This document shows positions 30,322 to 35,553 of a stretch of 64,000 nucleotides of DNA, in pieces. Made by a program: the position numbers and the translations under genes. Location of the stretch: positions 11,652-75,651 of the forward strand of contig CANQGU010000003.1 in the NCBI GenBank assembly GCA_947623465.1, in the 5' to 3' direction. The notes beneath the pieces were generated by a model. The model saw nothing but the letters and a program-made list of their open reading frames with translations, had not been told where the DNA came from and did not search any database. Each line of letters begins with the position of its first letter. Position 1 is the stretch's first letter. This DNA is from an uncultured Clostridia bacterium (lineage in GTDB: Bacteria > Bacillota > Clostridia > TANB77 > CAG-508).

Positions 30322-31158
30322 TTATTTATTTTTTAAGCTTTTCTTATTATCCTTTTCCAATTGTTTCAAACTTTTTTTAGGAGTAGGCAATTCTTCTGGC
30401 ATAGTTCCTCCAGCTTCTTTTATTGCTTTTCTTACTATTTTTCCAATTTTATTATGAGTATAACAAGCTTTCTTTTCAGTATCAACTTTATCTCTTTTTA
30501 ATCTTGATTCTGTTTGCGTGATGCGAAACAAATTAGCTGCCAGTTCTTCACTTCCCATATTATCTAAAATATCTTCTCTATATCTTAATCCTTTCCTTTT
30601 TGCAATATCATCAGCTGTTTCTCCATTATATAAACCTTTATATCCAGCATTATGAAATTTATCAAAATTCTTAACTCCTGCATTTTTAGCGGTTTGATTA
30701 AGTGAATAATTTCCTTTTCTTGTTAAGTTTCTTTGGTAAAATCTCTTTTCATCTTCTGTTAATGAAGTATACTCTTTTTCGCTAATTTCTTGTTTTCTAG
30801 TTTGAACTGCAAAATATGTTTGTGCTAATGCAACAATTTTTAGTCTTGGATTAGCATTTTGAGCTATAAGATAGCAAGCATATCGCGTTAATTTATAATC
30901 CTTTTGTTTTCTTTTTGCGCCAGAACCTATTTCTACCATTTTGTTGTCAACAACGAAATGGTCAATGTCAGCTATTTCAGAGTTTTGACAAGCTATCTTT
31001 GCTTTTTCAATTACTGCATCAAAATATCTCCAGTCTTTATAACTTAAAACTTTCATTAACTCTCTTGCATACCAAAATTCAATACCATTTTCATCAATGT
31101 GTTTTATATCTTCAAAAGTCTTATTATTATAATTTTCTTTTTTTTCTAGTTCTTTCAT
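30322..31158 (-). CDS. dinD: DNA damage-inducible protein D (DinD-like)
   Basis: FEDIKHIDENGIEFWYARELMKVLSYKDWRYF N-terminal signature. Confidence 0.65.
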   Translation of the reverse strand: MKELEKKENYNNKTFEDIKHIDENGIEFWYARELMKVLSYKDWRYFDAVIEKAKIACQNSEIADIDHFVVDNKMVEIGSGAKRKQKDYKLTRYACYLIAQNANPRLKIVALAQTYFAVQTRKQEISEKEYTSLTEDEKRFYQRNLTRKGNYSLNQTAKNAGVKNFDKFHNAGYKGLYNGETADDIAKRKGLRYREDILDNMGSEELAANLFRITQTESRLKRDKVDTEKKACYTHNKIGKIVRKAIKEAGGTMPEELPTPKKSLKQLEKDNKKSLKNK

Positions 31159-31316: not shown

Positions 31317-31700
31317 TTATAAAAAGACTTTATACTGATTATATTTATCACATAAACTTAAAGTACTAACATTTTTTATACTTGTTTTTGGAATTAAATA
31401 CATATCTTTTTCTTCAGTTAAAATAAAAACTAAATCTATATTGGTATTTAAAATTGTTTTATAAGTTTTTCCTTTTGTTCCACCACAACTTTTTAAAGCT
31501 ACTTGATAATTTCCTCCTTTTGCTATACAACCTGTTGACTTTACTTGAACCCTTTGTAATAAATTATTTTTTTCCACAATTAAATCGTAATCTTGTGTAT
31601 CATTTAATGGTATTGAAACAGTATATCCTTTTGTTGCAAAATAAGCTATTGCCATACCTAATCCACTATTTCCTTTTTCTTTATTACTAAAAAAATGCAT
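31317..31700 (-). CDS. PD-(D/E)XK endonuclease of the group-I-intron-associated type
   Basis: 127 aa. GLGMAIAYFATKGYTVSIPLNDTQDYDLIVE...VQVKS arrangement (D...D/ExK-like). Confidence 0.5.
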   Translation of the reverse strand: MHFFSNKEKGNSGLGMAIAYFATKGYTVSIPLNDTQDYDLIVEKNNLLQRVQVKSTGCIAKGGNYQVALKSCGGTKGKTYKTILNTNIDLVFILTEEKDMYLIPKTSIKNVSTLSLCDKYNQYKVFL

Positions 31701-31753: not shown

Positions 31754-32671
31754 TTATTCTTTCGTATTATTCTTTTCTTTTAATTTCCTTAAGCTTTTTT
31801 CATTTATCTGACTTTTTTTTGTTAATTTATTATCATCTACATATTTATAATTTAATGCATTTTGTTTTGTTATTACAGTTCTTCCTAATTCTTTTTCTAA
31901 ATCATTGCGAGTATGCTTGGCAATTTTTCCACCACGCTTTGCTATTTCTCTATTTTCTTTTAATCCATAAGGTTTATGTTCTTTCGCAAGTTCTCTTGCT
32001 GCAATTTCTCCTAAATCTGTTAATTCCACTTCTATATCTGTCATATTATCTCTTAATGATTCTTTTCTAATTCCTTTATATTCTTTATATTCACTATCTT
32101 TCATACCAGACCATTCTTGATATATTTCATTTGTAAGTATTCCATATTCATAATCTTTTGTTATGCCATTTTCTTTCCATATATCAGTCAATTTACGTCT
32201 ATCTACAACTCCTGTTAGTCTTGCCTTGATCCATTTGTCATCATAACCTTTGGCTCTATAATAATCTACTGCGCGGTTTACTGCAATTTCTGGATCAAAT
32301 ACTTCATCTATTCTTTCCTTTCCCATTTGAGCAAGCCATAGTTTAAAAGGTTCTGCCTTTGGACTTGGTACAGATTCAATAAGTCTTAAAATTCCTTTTG
32401 TATCTAATACATCATGACTATAATATTTTCCATCTTTAGATTTTAGTTTGAGTTGACTACAATTTGTAGTCAACTCAGAACCTTCTTTCTTTAAACGAGT
32501 CTTTAATACAGACCAATATTTTCTTGGCTCTTTACTATCAGTCAAAGCATTAATTACATCAACTACACTAAAGAAGTATTCTTCTTTTTCTGCATCCCAA
32601 ACACTTCTTATCTCTTTTCCTTCAAAAAGTTTTGAAATTGTTTCTAATTTATTATCTTTCATTAACAACAC
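31754..32671 (-). CDS. Bro-N domain protein (phage antirepressor-like)
   Basis: FEGKEIRSVWDAEKEEYFFSVVDVINALT...RKYWSVLK pattern. Confidence 0.6.
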   Translation of the reverse strand: MLLMKDNKLETISKLFEGKEIRSVWDAEKEEYFFSVVDVINALTDSKEPRKYWSVLKTRLKKEGSELTTNCSQLKLKSKDGKYYSHDVLDTKGILRLIESVPSPKAEPFKLWLAQMGKERIDEVFDPEIAVNRAVDYYRAKGYDDKWIKARLTGVVDRRKLTDIWKENGITKDYEYGILTNEIYQEWSGMKDSEYKEYKGIRKESLRDNMTDIEVELTDLGEIAARELAKEHKPYGLKENREIAKRGGKIAKHTRNDLEKELGRTVITKQNALNYKYVDDNKLTKKSQINEKSLRKLKEKNNTKE

Positions 32672-32836
32672 ACCCTTTTATAAATATTTAGTTTTTACTA
32701 CATCTACTACTATTTATAAAACTACTTTTATTATTTTAACAAAACTATTGTTTGTATTATATTTCAAATTTTGTCATTTGTCAACATATTTTACTTTTTT
32801 GTACAAAAAAAAAAGCAGTTCGAATAGAACTACTTG

Positions 32837-33145
32837 TGGTGGGCAAGGATGGATTCGAACCATCGTACGCTCTCGCGGCCAGATTTCTTACTACTATAGT
32901 TTTCACTACCATTTACATGTTTGTAGTCTGGACTTTCTCTTTATCTTTACTTATAAAAGATACCAGGTATAAAGTCTCTACACTCGGAATTTCTTCCTAG
33001 CTCGGGATTATCATCAGCTTAACCTGTTAAGACTTCCCCGAATTAGCCTAGTTATCATCATATAATCACTTATATGAGCTGCAAATTTAGGTATTTGTTA
33101 CCAAAGACCACAGTCTGGTGCCATTAACCACTCGACCACTTGCCC
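32837..33145 (-). tRNA. tRNA-Tyr(GUA), type II, interrupted by a 223-nt group I intron (exons 33145..33110 and 32886..32837)
   Basis: The acceptor GGGCAAG/CTTGCCC, A73-CCA, T arm GATGG-TTCGAAT-CCATC, long variable arm CCGCGAGAGCG and anticodon stem CCAGA/TCTGG are all present. The stem halves are separated by 223 nt. The only join with a U before and a G at the end of the insert gives the loop CTGTAAA. Confidence 0.85.
32887..33109 (-). ncRNA. group I intron (IC3-like) in the anticodon loop
   Basis: The 5' exon ends in U and the intron ends in G. The core segments AATTCGGGGAAG, CCCGAGCTAGG and GTGTAGAGACT resemble the tRNA-intron (Azoarcus-type) catalytic core as I recall it. Confidence 0.7.
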
Positions 33146-33298
33146 ATTTTTGTGTTTTTTGCAAAACACTTTTTTATTATAAGCTTTATAAAACAATTTG
33201 TCAAGACTTTTTGTCAAATTTTTTAAACTCAGTCGCTAAATATCAAAACAGCTCATCTGATTAATAATAAAAGCGACTGAGCAATGCTCAGTCAAATT

Positions 33299-34196
33299 TT
33301 ATATAATACTTGCCCCTATCATACCAGCATCATTTCCAAATTCAGCGGACTCAATTACTATATCCTCTCTTGGGTTAAACAACAAATTTGAATTCAATAT
33401 TTTCTGTTTAAGAGGTTCTAGAAGAATATAATCATATCTAGCAAAACCACCGCCAATAATAACTGAATCAGGTTCAAAAATATTTATTAAATTAGATAAC
33501 CCCAAAGCCAAATCATTTATATATTCTTCCTGAATATCTAAAATTTTATCCCCTGCTTTTTTCATTTCAGCCCTTAAATCATGTCCAGAAATCTCATAAG
33601 ATAAACCTAATCTTTCTATAATTTTGCGTTTAAATGCTAAAATACCTGCATACTTTTCAAAGCATCCTTTTTTACCACAATTGCATAACAATCCATTTTC
33701 TTTTATTATCATATGTCCAAACTCAAAACCTTCAAAATTAGAGCCTTCCATTAAGCTTCCATTGTATATATATGCTCCTCCAATTCCTGTTCCAAGTGTT
33801 AAAAACAAAACATTTTTATAATTTTTGCATTTCCCAAATTTGTATTCTGCAAGGGCTGCGCATTTTGCATCATTTTTTACATTTACTTTTAGTCCTGTTT
33901 CTTTTTCAAGTTTTTCGGTTATATTATATTCCTTTATCCCTAAGTTAACAGATTTTAAAACAGTTCCTTTTGATATAGAACCTGCCATACCTAAGCCAAA
34001 TTTTTCAAATTCATATTTTTCTTTTAATTTATTAATTATTTCTACAATATAGCCGAATTGCAACTTCAATTAAATTTTCTTTTTCTTTTATTGTAAAGTC
34101 TTTTTCAAATTGTTCTTTTATTTTACCATTGTTGTCAACAACTCCAATTGACACGTGGCTTCCACCTAAATCTATTCCTATATTTACTTTCTCCAT
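33299..34196 (-). CDS. glcK: ROK family glucokinase; needs a +1 shift at CGG 34055..34053
   Basis: MEKVNIGIDLGGSHVSIGVVD...LIEVAI-CGG, and the +1 frame reads GYIVEIINKL...GLGMAGS...LGTGIGG...CNCGKKGCFE (the ROK motif). Confidence 0.8.
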
Positions 34197-34209
34197 AGTA
34201 AACCACCCT

Positions 34210-35553
34210 TTATAAGTACGCATCGAACAAGAAATTTCCCATGTAAACTTGAATCATTGGAACTACTACAACTATAACGAAGAATATTAAAATTACACCT
34301 ACTATTGAATACATAACTTGAGGTAAAGTTTTCATTACCTTTTCCATAGTATTTTCTATATCTATTTGCATATACTCAACTAATTTCTCCATCATTTCTG
34401 CAAGGTCAGTCTGCATACCTATTTTAAGCATCTCTGTAACCATAGGAGAAGCTAGCCCTGATTTTTCCAAAGGTTCAATCCAAGATTGACCTATAAGTAA
34501 GTTCTTTAATGAGTTTTCTAGTATTGAAAGCATAACATAGTTATTTACAACATTTTTACTTACTTCCATTGCCTCTTGTATTCTCATTCCATTTTTCAAA
34601 TTTAAAAGCATAGCTTTCATTATTCTTGAAAGATCAATTGAAAATATAAGTTTACCAAAAATCGGCATTGTATATTTAAAATAATGGAATCTATATCTTC
34701 CTTTAGGAGTATGAACATACCAAACTATTGCGGCAGTAACTCCTATAACTAGCATTAACGGTACCTGCCAATGAGTAACTGCATAATTTACAACATTTTG
34801 AAACCATATTGTTATTGCAGGAAGTGTAGATGAAGTTCCAACCTCATCAAATACTTTTTGAATTTGAGGTAAGGCAAATAATGTACCAACTATTAACATT
34901 ACAAATAGTAATACAAATTGAACTAAGTTTGGTATTAATATTCCTCTAAGTTTTCTACCAATTTTTTCTGTATCTTCCAAATATTCTCTAGCTTGATATA
35001 ATGCATTTTCTAGAGATCCTGATAATTCTCCAACCCTTATCATATTTATATATATGTATGGGAATACGTTTGAATAGTATTCCATTGTTTTGTACATATA
35101 ATCTCCTGCTTCAACACCTGCTAATATATCGTCTAATATATCAACTAAAGTTAAGTTTTCTGTACTTTCTATAATAGTAGATAAAGCATGTACGTTGTTG
35201 AAGTTTGCTTTTTTTAGTAGATAAAAGTTTTCTGTAAATATAGATAAGTCTCTTGATGTAACTTTTTGTTCTGTACCTAAGTATTTATTTATTTTATCTT
35301 TCCAAGTTAGTTGTCTTCTGTTATCATTTATATCAACTGTTGTATCAAGATCTTGTATAGAGGTTTTTATTGTTGATACATTTCTTCTTTTCTTTTTATT
35401 TGCATTTCTTCTGGTTGCAGTTTGAGTTACAGAAATAGGCTGTAAACCATTAGCTTTTAATTTTTTTATTAAAATTAATCTATTTGGTTCTTCAACTTTA
35501 TTACTAACTACTTGTCCTGTTTCAGTTAAAGCTTTATAGTTAAATGTTGCCAT
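34210..35553 (-). CDS. pilC: type IV pilus platform protein PilC (GspF family)
   Basis: 447 aa with duplicated GspF-type domains and three TM segments. Confidence 0.8.
   Translation of the reverse strand: MATFNYKALTETGQVVSNKVEEPNRLILIKKLKANGLQPISVTQTATRRNANKKKRRNVSTIKTSIQDLDTTVDINDNRRQLTWKDKINKYLGTEQKVTSRDLSIFTENFYLLKKANFNNVHALSTIIESTENLTLVDILDDILAGVEAGDYMYKTMEYYSNVFPYIYINMIRVGELSGSLENALYQAREYLEDTEKIGRKLRGILIPNLVQFVLLFVMLIVGTLFALPQIQKVFDEVGTSSTLPAITIWFQNVVNYAVTHWQVPLMLVIGVTAAIVWYVHTPKGRYRFHYFKYTMPIFGKLIFSIDLSRIMKAMLLNLKNGMRIQEAMEVSKNVVNNYVMLSILENSLKNLLIGQSWIEPLEKSGLASPMVTEMLKIGMQTDLAEMMEKLVEYMQIDIENTMEKVMKTLPQVMYSIVGVILIFFVIVVVVPMIQVYMGNFLFDAYL

What the first reader, a model, noticed from the sequence alone, without database searches (positions are those of the whole stretch)
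32837..33145. Group I intron splitting the anticodon loop of tRNA-Tyr(GUA)
All tRNA elements are present, but the two halves of the anticodon stem (CCAGA at 33118-33114 and TCTGG at 32883-32879) are 230 nt apart.

Only one join satisfies both group I rules, a U at the end of the 5' exon and a G at the end of the intron. It yields the loop CUGUAAA, that is anticodon GUA, with the intron between anticodon positions 2 and 3.

The exons have the bacterial type II Tyr architecture: G1-C72, A73 and a long variable arm.

The 223-nt insert contains AAUUCGGGGAAG, CCCGAGCUAGG and GUGUAGAGACU. As I recall it, these resemble the P4-P6 and J6/7-P7 core of the small IC3 tRNA introns such as the Azoarcus tRNA-Ile intron.

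To my knowledge, bacterial tRNA group I introns are classically reported in tRNA-Leu(UAA), tRNA-fMet, tRNA-Ile(CAU) and tRNA-Arg(CCU). A Firmicute tRNA-Tyr host would be uncommon, and if this is the only tRNA-Tyr gene then splicing is essential.
Basis: partly seen in the sequence, partly recalled or inferred. Interest (0 to 1): 0.7.

Follow-up and report, generated by a model that had tools for sequence, protein, structure and literature searches.

The report
Self-splicing intron inside tyrosine tRNA gene
The only tRNA gene in this window, a tyrosine tRNA of an uncultured gut bacterium, is split in its anticodon by a 223-base group I (self-splicing) intron that recurs at the same spot in well over a hundred gut Firmicute species, is missed by standard annotation, and travels with a small DNA-cutting "homing" enzyme gene.

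Summary
On the minus strand, 33145-33110 and 32886-32837 are the two halves of a type II tRNA-Tyr(GUA), and 33109-32887 is a 223-nt insert between anticodon bases 35 and 36.

The insert is a group I intron of the small tRNA (IC3-like) kind.
- It matches Rfam RF00028 over the full model at 41.6 bits, E 4e-9. That is below the 50-bit gathering score, so default scans report nothing.
- My P1-P10 plus cloverleaf model is 95.7% paired on 110 sequences, against 37-44% in slid controls. 51 of 91 pairs show compensatory changes.
- Natural intronless genes exist. One (L221) is identical to the predicted ligated exons, and its alignment to the window breaks exactly at the predicted junctions.

Not in the original finding: window ORF 31317-31700 encodes an I-Ssp6803I-like PD-(D/E)XK endonuclease.
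- Intact homologs occur in 53 of 105 intron-bearing loci, usually about 70 bp downstream of the tRNA and three times inside the intron.
- None occurs in 88 intronless loci.
- This suggests collaborative homing.

No splicing experiment exists, and the whole-genome tRNA-Tyr count is untested. I found no published report in 10 searches. I file it as a new member of a known kind.

The parts
33176..33204 (-). Sigma-70-type promoter of the tRNA-Tyr transcription unit (TTGACA, 17 nt, TATAAT). It leaves a leader of roughly 24 nt before G1.
   Evidence: 12 of 12 consensus matches. This is a consensus match only.
33110..33145 (-). 5' exon of tRNA-Tyr(GUA): acceptor 5' strand, D arm, anticodon stem 5' strand and C32 U33 G34 U35. 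It ends in the splice-site U.
   Evidence: ARAGORN -i. The terminal U.G pair with the guide sequence is kept in 110 of 110 sequences.
32887..33109 (-). 223-nt group I intron with no ORF.
   Evidence: RF00028 at 41.6 bits, E 4e-9, full model. Family HMM E 2e-65. Covariation. Precisely absent from the intronless allele L221.
33079..33086 (-). Internal guide sequence 5'-AUUU|GCAG-3'. GCAG pairs with exon CUGU (P1). UUU(A) pairs with 3' exon AAA(U) (P10).
   Evidence: Read from the sequence. The P1 pairs U.G, G-C and U-A are invariant in 110 of 110. Two P10 pairs are kept in 109-110 of 110. RNAalifold predicts P1 and its extension.
33087..33105 (-). Hairpin extension of the P1 loop (L1). It is dispensable: deleted in L031, L043 and L061. 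It is also where the endonuclease ORF is inserted in L023, L057 and L110.
   Evidence: (5 of 7 pairs with compensatory changes).
33058..33077 (-). P2 hairpin, 8 bp, with a GUGA (GNRA) loop.
   Evidence: 8 of 8 pairs show compensatory changes. Also predicted by RNAalifold and by the single-sequence fold.
32986..33051 (-). P3 5' strand (33051-33047), J3/4, and the P4-P5-P5a-P6 domain (33042-32986). P6 has a GAAA loop. Contains AAUUCGGGGAAG and CCCGAGCUAGG.
   Evidence: Compensatory changes in P3 (4 of 5 pairs), P4 (1 of 7), P5 (1 of 2), P5a (3 of 3) and P6 (4 of 4). 88% identical to the NrdD intron of a Fusobacterium phage.
32963..32983 (-). J6/7 and P7 5' strand (GUGUAGAGACU, 32983-32973), J7/3, and P3 3' strand (32967-32963). 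P3 and P7 cross, forming the pseudoknot.
   Evidence: Invariant in the family, but it was part of the search pattern. Shared with tRNA-Leu and tRNA-Arg introns.
32942..32962 (-). P8 hairpin.
   Evidence: 6 of 7 pairs show compensatory changes.
32930..32941 (-). J8/7 (AAGAGAA) and P7 3' strand (AGUCC). P7 is GACU/AGUC plus G-C across a bulged A, the presumed guanosine-binding helix.
   Evidence: Read from the sequence. All four counted pairs are kept in 110 of 110. That is uninformative because these bases were in the search pattern.
32887..32927 (-). 3' domain: P9.0 (ACUAC/GUAGU) enclosing hairpins P9a and P9b (invariant GAAA loop), then AAG ending in the terminal G (omega-G) at 32887.
   Evidence: Compensatory changes in P9b (3 of 5 pairs), P9a (2 of 3) and P9.0 (1 of 5). 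83-89% identical to tRNA-Leu, tRNA-Arg and crAss-like phage helicase introns. All 113 intron calls end in G.
32837..32886 (-). 3' exon: A36 A37 A38, anticodon stem 3' strand, long variable arm, T arm, acceptor 3' strand, A73 and encoded CCA.
   Evidence: Compensatory changes in the acceptor stem (5 of 7 pairs), T stem (3 of 5) and variable arm (2 of 3).
32813..32835 (-). Intrinsic-terminator-like hairpin plus a T run that closes the tRNA transcription unit.
31754..32671 (-). Bro-N domain ORF (305 aa) with its own 12-of-12 promoter at 32784-32756. It lies between the tRNA and the endonuclease gene and is absent from that spot in relative L038.
31317..31700 (-). Free-standing gene for a 127-aa PD-(D/E)XK endonuclease of the I-Ssp6803I type, preceded by a ribosome-binding site (AAAGGAGAG). 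Presumed homing endonuclease partnered with the intron.
   Evidence: Pfam PF11645 E 3e-18. 61% identical to the ORFs inside tRNA-Tyr introns of L023, L057 and L110. Profile against PDB 2OST E 4.7e-5. Distribution.

Best explanation
The window carries the resident tRNA-Tyr(GUA) gene of an uncultured, AT-rich (about 26% G+C) gut Firmicute. The gene is interrupted between U35 and A36 by a 223-nt ORF-less group I intron of the small tRNA (IC3-like) family.

The gene is transcribed from its own promoter as a precursor of about 330 nt. The inferred steps, following the established group I mechanism, are:
1. The intron folds into P1-P9 with the P3/P7 pseudoknot. The exons keep the anticodon stem.
2. 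The guide sequence AUUU|GCAG pairs with exon CUGU. This places the U.G wobble at the 5' splice site.
3. An external guanosine bound in P7 attacks after U35.
4. The guide then pairs with AAA(U) of the 3' exon (P10). The terminal G (32887) enters the G site, and the freed U35 3'-OH attacks.
5. This produces the 86-nt tRNA with loop CUGUAAA.

At the DNA level the intron belongs to a mobile module. A nearby gene encodes an I-Ssp6803I-like PD-(D/E)XK endonuclease. It probably cuts uninterrupted tRNA-Tyr genes at the anticodon, and the intron destroys that site. Intron and endonuclease gene would then be copied together into intronless alleles (collaborative, or trans, homing).

Shown here: the sequence, fold conservation, exact junction, presence/absence polymorphism, and intron-endonuclease association. 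Inferred: catalysis, in vivo splicing, and the endonuclease's target.
For: Intron identity:
- Full-length RF00028 match, E 4e-9. Relative L060 scores 59 bits, above the gathering score.
- ARAGORN -i calls tRNA-Tyr i(37,223).
- 119 species-level genomes hold the same intron. ARAGORN calls it at the same site in 112 of them. The other seven are cut at a locus end, interrupted by an assembly gap, or missed by ARAGORN.
- The hand-drawn P1-P10 plus cloverleaf structure is 95.7% paired, against 37-44% in slid controls. 51 of 91 pairs show compensatory changes, and 0 of 500 shuffles reach the observed values.
- RNAalifold independently recovers P1, P2, P3, P4, P5, P6, P8, P9a, P9b and the cloverleaf stems. 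41 of its 70 pairs show compensatory changes.
- The splice-site U.G pair is kept in 110 of 110 sequences. The terminal G is present in all 113 intron calls.
- The core aligns with tRNA-Leu(UAA) and tRNA-Arg(CCU) introns.

Junction and function:
- 17 natural intronless genes match spliced forms 100%. L221 matches the window's predicted product 86 of 86.
- The L221-to-window alignment breaks at 33110|32886.
- Exon stems show compensatory changes, which indicates purifying selection on the tRNA.
- Intron-bearing and intronless genes occupy the same tRNA slots.
- No second tRNA-Tyr occurs in the window or in any of the 119 loci.
- A promoter and a terminator flank the gene.

Endonuclease:
- establish the family.
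- 53 intact copies in 105 intron-bearing loci, against 0 in 28 closely related and 0 in 88 total intronless loci. Fisher p = 3e-8 and 5e-19.
- The only copy beside an intronless gene (L248) is truncated.
Against: - No RNA or biochemical data exist. Splicing is inferred.
- The Rfam score is below the curated gathering threshold (41.6 against 50), and nothing is reported in a default scan.
- The P7 and J6/7 bases were part of the search pattern, so their invariance carries no weight.
- All relatives are metagenome-assembled genomes.
- The shuffle control and the Fisher tests ignore phylogeny.
- 45 of 105 intron-bearing loci have no endonuclease gene. In the window the gene is 1.1 kb away, behind another ORF and a terminator.
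- The endonuclease's target is unknown.
- The single-sequence fold energy is only modestly better than shuffles (z = -1.9).
- The number of tRNA-Tyr genes in the source genome is unknown.
Confidence: 0.9

Rival explanations
1. The intron is real, but it does not splice on its own in the cell. It needs a host protein, such as an RNA chaperone or a tyrosyl-tRNA-synthetase-like cofactor, because the RNA is very AT-rich with short helices.
For: P1 is only 4 bp and P10 only 3-4 bp. G+C is 35%. The MFE z-score is only -1.9. Protein-assisted group I splicing is established in fungal mitochondria (PMC3984707).
Against: All core helices and both tetraloops (L2 GNRA, L9b GAAA) are conserved with covariation. 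From established knowledge, the equally small Azoarcus and Anabaena tRNA introns self-splice with 3-bp P1 helices. No candidate maturase is encoded in the intron.
Confidence: 0.15
2. The interrupted gene is a disabled copy (pseudogene), and a separate intact tRNA-Tyr gene elsewhere in the genome does the work.
For: Only 64 kb of the genome is visible. The whole-genome tRNA count could not be made.
Against: Exons and intron core are conserved with compensatory changes across at least 110 species. The gene sits in the canonical tRNA slot that intronless alleles occupy in relatives. It has a perfect promoter and a terminator. No intact tRNA-Tyr occurs in any of the 119 8-kb loci.
Confidence: 0.04
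3. The endonuclease gene is unrelated to the intron. It is a free-standing homing or selfish nuclease that targets the intergenic DNA downstream of tRNA-Tyr ('intronless homing'), or serves another role. It co-occurs with the intron only through shared ancestry.
For: 45 of 105 intron-bearing loci lack it. The association tests are not corrected for phylogeny. In the window it is separated from the tRNA by a Bro-N gene. Free-standing endonucleases that home without introns are known (PMC3984707).
Against: The same protein family (60-63% identity) is encoded inside the intron's P1 loop in L023, L057 and L110. There are 0 intact copies in 88 intronless loci against 53 in 105 intron-bearing loci. 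The one copy next to an intronless gene is truncated. The closest solved relative, 2OST, is by my recollection I-Ssp6803I, which is encoded in a tRNA-fMet intron and cuts the tRNA anticodon region (reference listed).
Confidence: 0.2
4. The insert is not an intron. It is an assembly chimera, or a non-splicing insertion such as a small transposon that has killed the gene.
For: The source is metagenomic.
Against: An identical locus appears in an independent assembly (L006). The same insertion point occurs in at least 119 assemblies from many studies. The group I fold shows covariation. There are no terminal repeats or transposase, and only one copy in the window.
Confidence: 0.01

Closest known systems
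Group I (IC3) introns in bacterial and plastid tRNA anticodon loops: tRNA-Leu(UAA) of cyanobacteria and chloroplasts, tRNA-Ile(CAU) of Azoarcus, tRNA-Arg(CCU) of Agrobacterium, tRNA-fMet of cyanobacteria
   Same: - Small size of about 200-250 nt.
- Inserted after a U in the anticodon.
- The guide sequence pairs with both exon ends.
- P2-P9 core with no P5abc.
- GNRA loops on P2 and P9.
- Near-identical core strings (AAUUCGG.GAA, GUGUAGAGACU, AGUCCAGACUACAAAC, UAUAGURGUAAG), shared with the tRNA-Leu and tRNA-Arg introns fetched here.
   Different: - The host gene is tRNA-Tyr(GUA).
- The insertion point is 35/36. In the examples fetched here, Leu is 34/35 and Arg is 36/37.
- The guide reads GCAG rather than GAG.
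- Most copies carry an extra hairpin in the P1 loop.
- The hosts are uncultured gut Clostridia and Bacilli rather than cyanobacteria or proteobacteria. Those are the only bacterial hosts listed in reviews PMC4033280 and PMC3984707.
I-Ssp6803I, the PD-(D/E)XK homing endonuclease encoded in the Synechocystis tRNA-fMet group I intron (PDB 2OST)
   Same: - Same Pfam family, PF11645.
- Profile match to 2OST at E 4.7e-5, covering the PL.D...YDL...VQVK catalytic region.
- Associated with a tRNA-anticodon group I intron.
   Different: - Only distantly related in sequence.
- In the window and in about 50 relatives the gene is outside the intron, downstream of the tRNA. It is inside the intron in only three loci.
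- The target is untested.
[quoted passage not shown]
   Same: - An ORF-less intron with a separate endonuclease gene close by.
- The endonuclease is present only where the intron interrupts the presumed target.
- Related loci have the ORF already moved into the intron. That is the step this model predicts.
   Different: - The known cases are in phages and in protein-coding genes. This one is chromosomal, in a tRNA gene, and spread over many bacterial species.
- The endonuclease family is different.
- Cleavage at the intron insertion site has not been shown here.

Membership tests
Group I intron (Rfam RF00028) | Statistically significant, full-length match to the family covariance model | tested here: met
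   41.6 bits, E 4e-9, model positions 1-253. This is below Rfam's operational gathering score of 50, so the default scan is empty. Relative L060 reaches 59.2 bits. The model ends its alignment 19 nt early, which lowers the score.
Group I intron (Rfam RF00028) | Conserved P3-P9 core with the P3/P7 pseudoknot, supported by covariation | tested here: met
   Compensatory changes in P2 (8 of 8 pairs), P3 (4 of 5), P6 (4 of 4), P8 (6 of 7) and P9b (3 of 5). P7 is fully paired, but its bases were in the search pattern and so are invariant and uninformative.
Group I intron (Rfam RF00028) | U at the end of the 5' exon forming a U.G wobble with the guide sequence in P1 | tested here: met
   U.G in 110 of 110 sequences. 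The adjacent G-C and U-A pairs are also kept in 110 of 110.
Group I intron (Rfam RF00028) | G as the last intron nucleotide (omega-G), and P10 pairing of the guide with the 3' exon | tested here: met
   All 113 intron calls end in G. Two P10 A-U pairs are kept in 109-110 of 110; the third pairs in only 26 of 110.
Group I intron (Rfam RF00028) | Guanosine-dependent self-splicing by two transesterifications | not testable with these tools
   Requires in vitro transcription and a splicing assay, or RNA-seq.
IC3 subgroup (small tRNA introns) | Located in a tRNA anticodon loop, about 200-250 nt, with no P2.1, P5abc or P7.1/7.2 | tested here: met
   The structure. Intron lengths without an ORF are 198-249 nt.
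IC3 subgroup (small tRNA introns) | Core sequence homology with established tRNA-Leu(UAA)-type introns | tested here: met
   86% identity over 64 nt, plus the aligned P4', P6 and P7 core, to a phage tRNA-Leu(UAA) intron. 84% identity to a phage tRNA-Arg(CCU) intron. The comparison with Azoarcus itself rests on memory only.
IC3 subgroup (small tRNA introns) | L2-P8 and L9-P5 tetraloop-receptor contacts | tested here: inconclusive
   L2 is GNRA (mostly GUGA). L9b GAAA is invariant. The P5 internal loop CUUAAC/GAUG is nearly invariant.
Bacterial tRNA-Tyr | After splicing: GUA anticodon, type II long variable arm, G1-C72, A73 | tested here: met
   ARAGORN on the spliced 86-mer. It is identical to a natural uninterrupted gene, L221.
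PD-(D/E)XK homing endonucleases of the I-Ssp6803I type (Pfam PF11645) | Family profile match above the curated cut-off, and similarity to the solved member | tested here: met
   66.6 bits against a cut-off of 26.1. Profile against 2OST E 4.7e-5.
PD-(D/E)XK homing endonucleases of the I-Ssp6803I type (Pfam PF11645) | Site-specific cleavage of the intronless allele at the intron insertion site | not testable with these tools
   Only indirect evidence: 53 intact copies in 105 intron-bearing loci against 0 in 88 intronless loci.
Collaborative (trans) homing module | An ORF-less intron plus a free-standing endonuclease gene linked to the same target gene | tested here: met
   In the window the gene starts 1,137 bp downstream of the tRNA. 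In 50 relatives it lies 51-270 bp downstream on the same strand.
Collaborative (trans) homing module | Intron and endonuclease gene co-converted into intronless alleles | not tested
   Needs population or experimental data. The presence/absence polymorphism is compatible with it.

The most novel reading that the evidence does not exclude
The tRNA-Tyr locus of uncultured gut Clostridia and Bacilli may be a natural series that shows how mobile group I introns are assembled. Every stage occurs at one orthologous site:
- intronless alleles;
- ORF-less intron alone;
- ORF-less intron with a free-standing I-Ssp6803I-like endonuclease gene about 70 bp downstream (collaborative homing, so far described only in two phage systems);
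- the same ORF captured inside the intron's P1 loop;
- decaying endonuclease remnants;
- an ectopic jump of the intron into the neighbouring tRNA-Thr(UGU), where it carries a different (HNH-like) ORF.

On this reading the window represents the free-standing stage, with a later Bro-N gene insertion between the partners.
Probability: 0.55. Interest if true: 0.75.

Novelty: new member of a known kind. Interest (0 to 1): 0.62.

Why it matters
**Annotation.** Default ARAGORN, and Rfam at its gathering threshold, report nothing here. By its authors' own statement, tRNAscan-SE is not designed to detect group I introns (PMC8450103). At least 119 gut Firmicute species would therefore appear to lack tRNA-Tyr. 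That distorts tRNA-complement checks of metagenome-assembled genomes and codon-usage inferences.

**Biology.** The finding extends bacterial tRNA group I introns to a new tRNA, a new anticodon position (35/36) and a new phylum. If this is the sole tRNA-Tyr gene, all protein synthesis in these abundant gut organisms depends on a ribozyme.

**Evolution.** Across many species, one locus shows the following states:
- the intron with a free-standing endonuclease gene;
- the intron with the endonuclease ORF embedded in it;
- decayed endonuclease copies;
- loci with no endonuclease gene;
- intronless alleles.

This makes the long-debated route by which introns acquire homing endonucleases directly testable.

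Tried and rejected
- **First genome scan.** I searched with the window's own 3' exon pattern (AAATCTGG N15 GATGGTTCGAATCCATC) and got 0 hits. The source genome itself is evidently not readable in that collection, and no relative shares this exact T arm and anticodon stem together.
- **Viral contig scan.** The scan for the intron's 3' end plus the AAATC exon also returned 0 hits. No phage copy of the tRNA-Tyr intron was found. The phage database gave only partial matches to other group I introns.
- **Exact-protein lookup of the ROK ORF.** This failed because the ORF is frameshifted. The PilT lookup showed that the window is known only from metagenome contigs.
- **Rfam on 56 kb of relatives.** With the stricter filters this missed all but one intron, so Rfam scores were not usable for a family-wide survey.
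- **NCBIfam.** It has no model for the endonuclease.
- **Literature.** Ten searches found no report of a bacterial tRNA-Tyr group I intron. One cyanobacterial paper claiming very short 'group I' tRNA introns (PMC5733544) is not comparable.
- **Ideas considered and rejected.** Pseudogene, assembly artefact and transposon insertion (see the rival explanations). I also rejected an archaeal-type, protein-spliced intron: there is no bulge-helix-bulge motif, and the fold is group I.
- **Not done.** I did not build a dedicated covariance model, because the nhmmer profile already showed a single copy in the window. The taxonomy lookup failed on the name syntax.
Full report
**1. Observation**

Read on the minus strand, window 33145-33110 is GGGCAAGUGGUCGAGUGGUUAAUGGCACCAGACUGU. 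Window 32886-32837 is AAAUCUGGCCGCGAGAGCGUACGAUGGUUCGAAUCCAUCCUUGCCCACCA. Between them lie 223 nt (33109-32887).

- ARAGORN in default mode finds no tRNA anywhere in the 64-kb window.
- Rfam at gathering thresholds also finds nothing.
- With intron search enabled, ARAGORN calls tRNA-Tyr(gta) i(37,223) at exactly these coordinates.
- The joined 86-mer is a tRNA-Tyr with G1-C72, A73, a 3-bp variable-arm stem and loop CUGUAAA.

I enumerated every join that gives a 7-nt loop. Only CUGU|AAA leaves a U before the intron and a G at its end.

**2. Is the insert a group I intron?**

A permissive Rfam scan of 32600-33400 gives RF00028 over the whole model (1-253) at 41.6 bits, E 4e-9.
- The score is below the 50-bit gathering score. 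This is why default pipelines stay silent.
- The model stops 19 nt before the true 3' end.

By hand I placed the following elements. Positions are in pre-tRNA numbering, where window coordinate = 33146 minus position.

| Element | Sequence or positions |
|---|---|
| P1 | CUGU/GCAG, with the U.G wobble at the splice site |
| P1-loop hairpin | dispensable extension |
| P10 | AAA(U)/(A)UUU, contiguous with P1 on the guide AUUU\|GCAG |
| P2 | GUGA loop |
| P3 | CUAGG/CCUGG |
| P4 | UUCGGGG/UCCCGAG |
| P5, P5a | short helices within the P4-P6 domain |
| P6 | GAAA loop |
| P7 | GACU/AGUC plus G-C across a bulged A |
| P8 | hairpin |
| 3' domain | three-way P9.0, P9a, P9b (GAAA loop) |
| omega-G | position 259 (window 32887) |

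**3. Relatives**

Phage databases gave only partial matches, all to other group I introns:
- a tRNA-Leu(UAA) intron in a 735-kb phage;
- a tRNA-Arg(CCU) intron in a Microcoleus phage;
- helicase introns of crAss-like phages;
- an NrdD intron of a Fusobacterium phage.

- All come from uncultured gut or rumen Clostridia, Bacilli, 'Clostridium sp. CAG...' or 'Tenericutes'.
- ARAGORN -i finds tRNA-Tyr(gta) interrupted at the same position in 112 of them.
- The remainder are the same gene, either cut by a locus end or an assembly gap, or missed by ARAGORN.
- No locus holds an uninterrupted tRNA-Tyr.

**4. Covariation**

On a MAFFT alignment of 110 distinct pre-tRNAs (A1), my structure gave these results:
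- 95.7% of cells paired, against 37-44% when the 3' partners are slid.
- 51 of 91 pairs with changes on both sides.
- No shuffle out of 500 reaching any of the observed measures.

Pairs with compensatory changes, by helix:

| Helix | Pairs with compensatory changes |
|---|---|
| P2 | 8 of 8 |
| P3 | 4 of 5 |
| P5a | 3 of 3 |
| P6 | 4 of 4 |
| P8 | 6 of 7 |
| P9a | 2 of 3 |
| P9b | 3 of 5 |
| Acceptor stem | 5 of 7 |
| T stem | 3 of 5 |

- The exon changes show that the tRNA itself is under selection.
- P7 never varies, but its bases were in my search pattern, so this says nothing.
- RNAalifold, run independently, recovered the cloverleaf stems, P1 with its extension, the P1-loop hairpin, P2, P3, P4, P5, P6, P8, P9a and P9b. 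41 of its 70 pairs are compensatory.
- The single-sequence fold recovers the same hairpins, with a modest z-score of -1.9.
- An alignment with the tRNA-Leu and tRNA-Arg introns shows the shared core: AAUUCGG.GAA, AUGG.AAU.CCGAGC, GUGUAGAGACU, AGUCCAGACUACAAAC and UAUAGURGUAAG. This supports the IC3-like assignment. The likeness to Azoarcus itself remains a recollection.

**5. The junction is confirmed by nature**

- Seventeen carry tRNA-Tyr genes 100% identical to the spliced form of intron-bearing genes.
- L221 is identical (86 of 86) to the window's predicted product.
- The L221-to-window alignment breaks exactly at 33110|32886.
- Intronless and intron-bearing genes occupy the same slots: Met-Tyr, Val-Thr-Tyr-Gln-Lys, or solitary.

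The interrupted gene is therefore the resident tRNA-Tyr, not an extra decayed copy. The intron is polymorphic among close relatives.

**6. Context in the window**

- The window is chromosomal, about 26% G+C.
- It carries FtsZ, ProS, a Mur ligase and type IV pilus genes.
- It is known only from metagenome contigs. One of these (L006) repeats the locus identically.
- The order PilC, ROK, tRNA-Tyr(intron), endonuclease, Bro-N/DinD-like is shared with L038, L097, L114 and L118 at 70-91% nucleotide identity.
- A 12-of-12 promoter (33204-33176) and a terminator (32835-32813) flank the tRNA.
- A family HMM finds one intron copy in the window, at E 2e-65.

**7. The endonuclease**

Three Bacilli loci (L023, L057 and L110) have introns of 602-606 nt. 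The extra DNA is an ORF of about 125 aa in the P1 loop, preceded by GGAGG.
- The ORF belongs to Pfam PF11645.
- It is 61% identical to window ORF 31317-31700, which scores E 3e-18 against the same family.
- A profile of 24 members matches PDB 2OST at E 4.7e-5.
- From memory, 2OST is I-Ssp6803I, the endonuclease of the tRNA-fMet intron. The paper describing an endonuclease specific for the tRNA-fMet anticodon region is listed.

Among 105 intron-bearing loci with at least 600 bp of downstream sequence:

| State of the endonuclease gene | Loci |
|---|---|
| Full length, 51-270 bp downstream (median 72), same strand | 50 |
| Full length, inside the intron | 3 |
| Full length, farther away | 2 |
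| Remnant only | 5 |
| None | 45 |

- Of the 55 full-length copies, 53 are intact and 2 carry one in-frame stop codon.
- Among intronless loci with at least 500 bp of downstream sequence, none of 28 close relatives and none of 88 overall has an intact copy. Fisher p = 3e-8 and 5e-19, not corrected for phylogeny.
- The only hit beside an intronless gene, L248, is truncated after 62 codons.
- In the window the gene starts 1,137 bp downstream of the tRNA. A Bro-N ORF with its own promoter has been inserted between them, compared with L038.

This pattern matches 'collaborative homing', which review PMC3984707 describes for two phage systems only. The target of the enzyme remains untested.

**8. 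Mechanism and comparison**

The inferred mechanism is standard group I self-splicing, as set out in the best explanation. It is followed by RNase P and 3'-end maturation of the ligated tRNA.

This is the same kind of element as the classical tRNA-Leu, tRNA-Ile, tRNA-Arg and tRNA-fMet introns. It differs in three respects:
- the host tRNA;
- the insertion point, 35/36;
- the host phylum.

Two reviews list only cyanobacterial and proteobacterial tRNA hosts (PMC4033280; PMC3984707). Ten full-text searches found no report of a tRNA-Tyr case. Subscription literature could not be searched, so prior description cannot be excluded.

**9. Verdict**

- It is a new member of a known kind.
- Interest is moderate to high, mainly for two reasons. 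Many gut genomes are affected by the annotation blind spot, and the locus displays several stages of intron-endonuclease association.
- Still unshown: splicing itself, whether this is the only tRNA-Tyr gene in the genome, and what the endonuclease cuts.

Noticed in passing
window 31317-31700 (-); L038:2911-3291, L097:1825-2199, L023:119-472 and about 50 other loci: A free-standing 127-aa PD-(D/E)XK (PF11645, I-Ssp6803I-like) endonuclease gene lies downstream of the tRNA-Tyr gene. It is homologous to ORFs embedded in the tRNA-Tyr introns of some Bacilli genomes. Intact copies occur in 53 of 105 intron-bearing loci and in none of 88 intronless loci.
   Followed up: yes
L082:5868-6570 (-), L083:1287-1987 (-), L096:5020-5720 (-): In three Bacilli or 'Mycoplasma' genomes the tRNA-Thr(UGU) gene next to tRNA-Tyr is interrupted after U36 (ACUUGU|...|AAUCAG). 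The intron core is nearly identical to that of the neighbouring tRNA-Tyr intron. It carries an HNH-like ORF (CPNCH motif) of about 400 nt in the P5 loop. This looks like an ectopic jump to a similar UGU|AA site.
   Followed up: partly
L031, L043, L061 (A1 columns 39-65); L023, L057, L110: The P1-loop hairpin is entirely absent in three species, leaving introns of 198-201 nt. It is also the site of the endonuclease ORF insertion in three others. It is therefore a dispensable peripheral element.
   Followed up: partly
L060:7560-8000 (-): A divergent tRNA-Tyr intron lineage whose core is closer to the tRNA-Leu type. It scores 59 bits on RF00028. Part of a PF11645-like ORF lies upstream within the intron. 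The tRNA 3' end reads CCCCAUCA rather than an encoded ACCA. The locus is cut at its end.
   Followed up: partly
window 33299-34223 (-): The ROK-family (glucokinase-like) gene upstream of the tRNA is split by a frameshift near 34032-34069. Its N-terminal 63 codons and C-terminal 256 codons are in different frames. The gene calls for the independent contig L006 show the same split. The gene is in one frame in L038, L097, L114 and L118. It is either a pseudogene or a shared assembly error.
   Followed up: partly
window 31754-32671 (-) and 30322-31158 (-): Two Bro-N domain ORFs lie downstream of the tRNA. The distal one is a DinD ('DNA damage-inducible protein D') equivalog at 340 bits, and it is conserved next to the endonuclease gene in L038 (91% nucleotide identity). 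The proximal one is an extra insertion with its own perfect promoter, separating the tRNA from the endonuclease gene.
   Followed up: partly
L248:60-480: An intronless tRNA-Tyr gene is followed by a terminator and an endonuclease gene truncated after 62 codons. It is the only endonuclease trace found beside an uninterrupted gene. This fits decay of the endonuclease before or after intron loss.
   Followed up: partly
whole window; L082, L096, L023, L038, L029, L031: Default ARAGORN, Rfam at its gathering threshold, and Rfam in E-value mode on a 56-kb batch all fail to report these introns. Genomes of this clade will therefore look as if they lack tRNA-Tyr in routine annotation.
   Followed up: yes
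L029:1546-1667 (-): An 80.8-bit match (E 6e-14, gathering score 83) to the plant microRNA family MIR7504 in a rabbit-gut Clostridia genome. It is probably a structured bacterial repeat or a chance hairpin.
   Followed up: no
window 33274-33294: A strong terminator-like palindrome, readable on both strands, sits between the ROK gene and the tRNA promoter. It isolates the tRNA as its own transcription unit.
   Followed up: no
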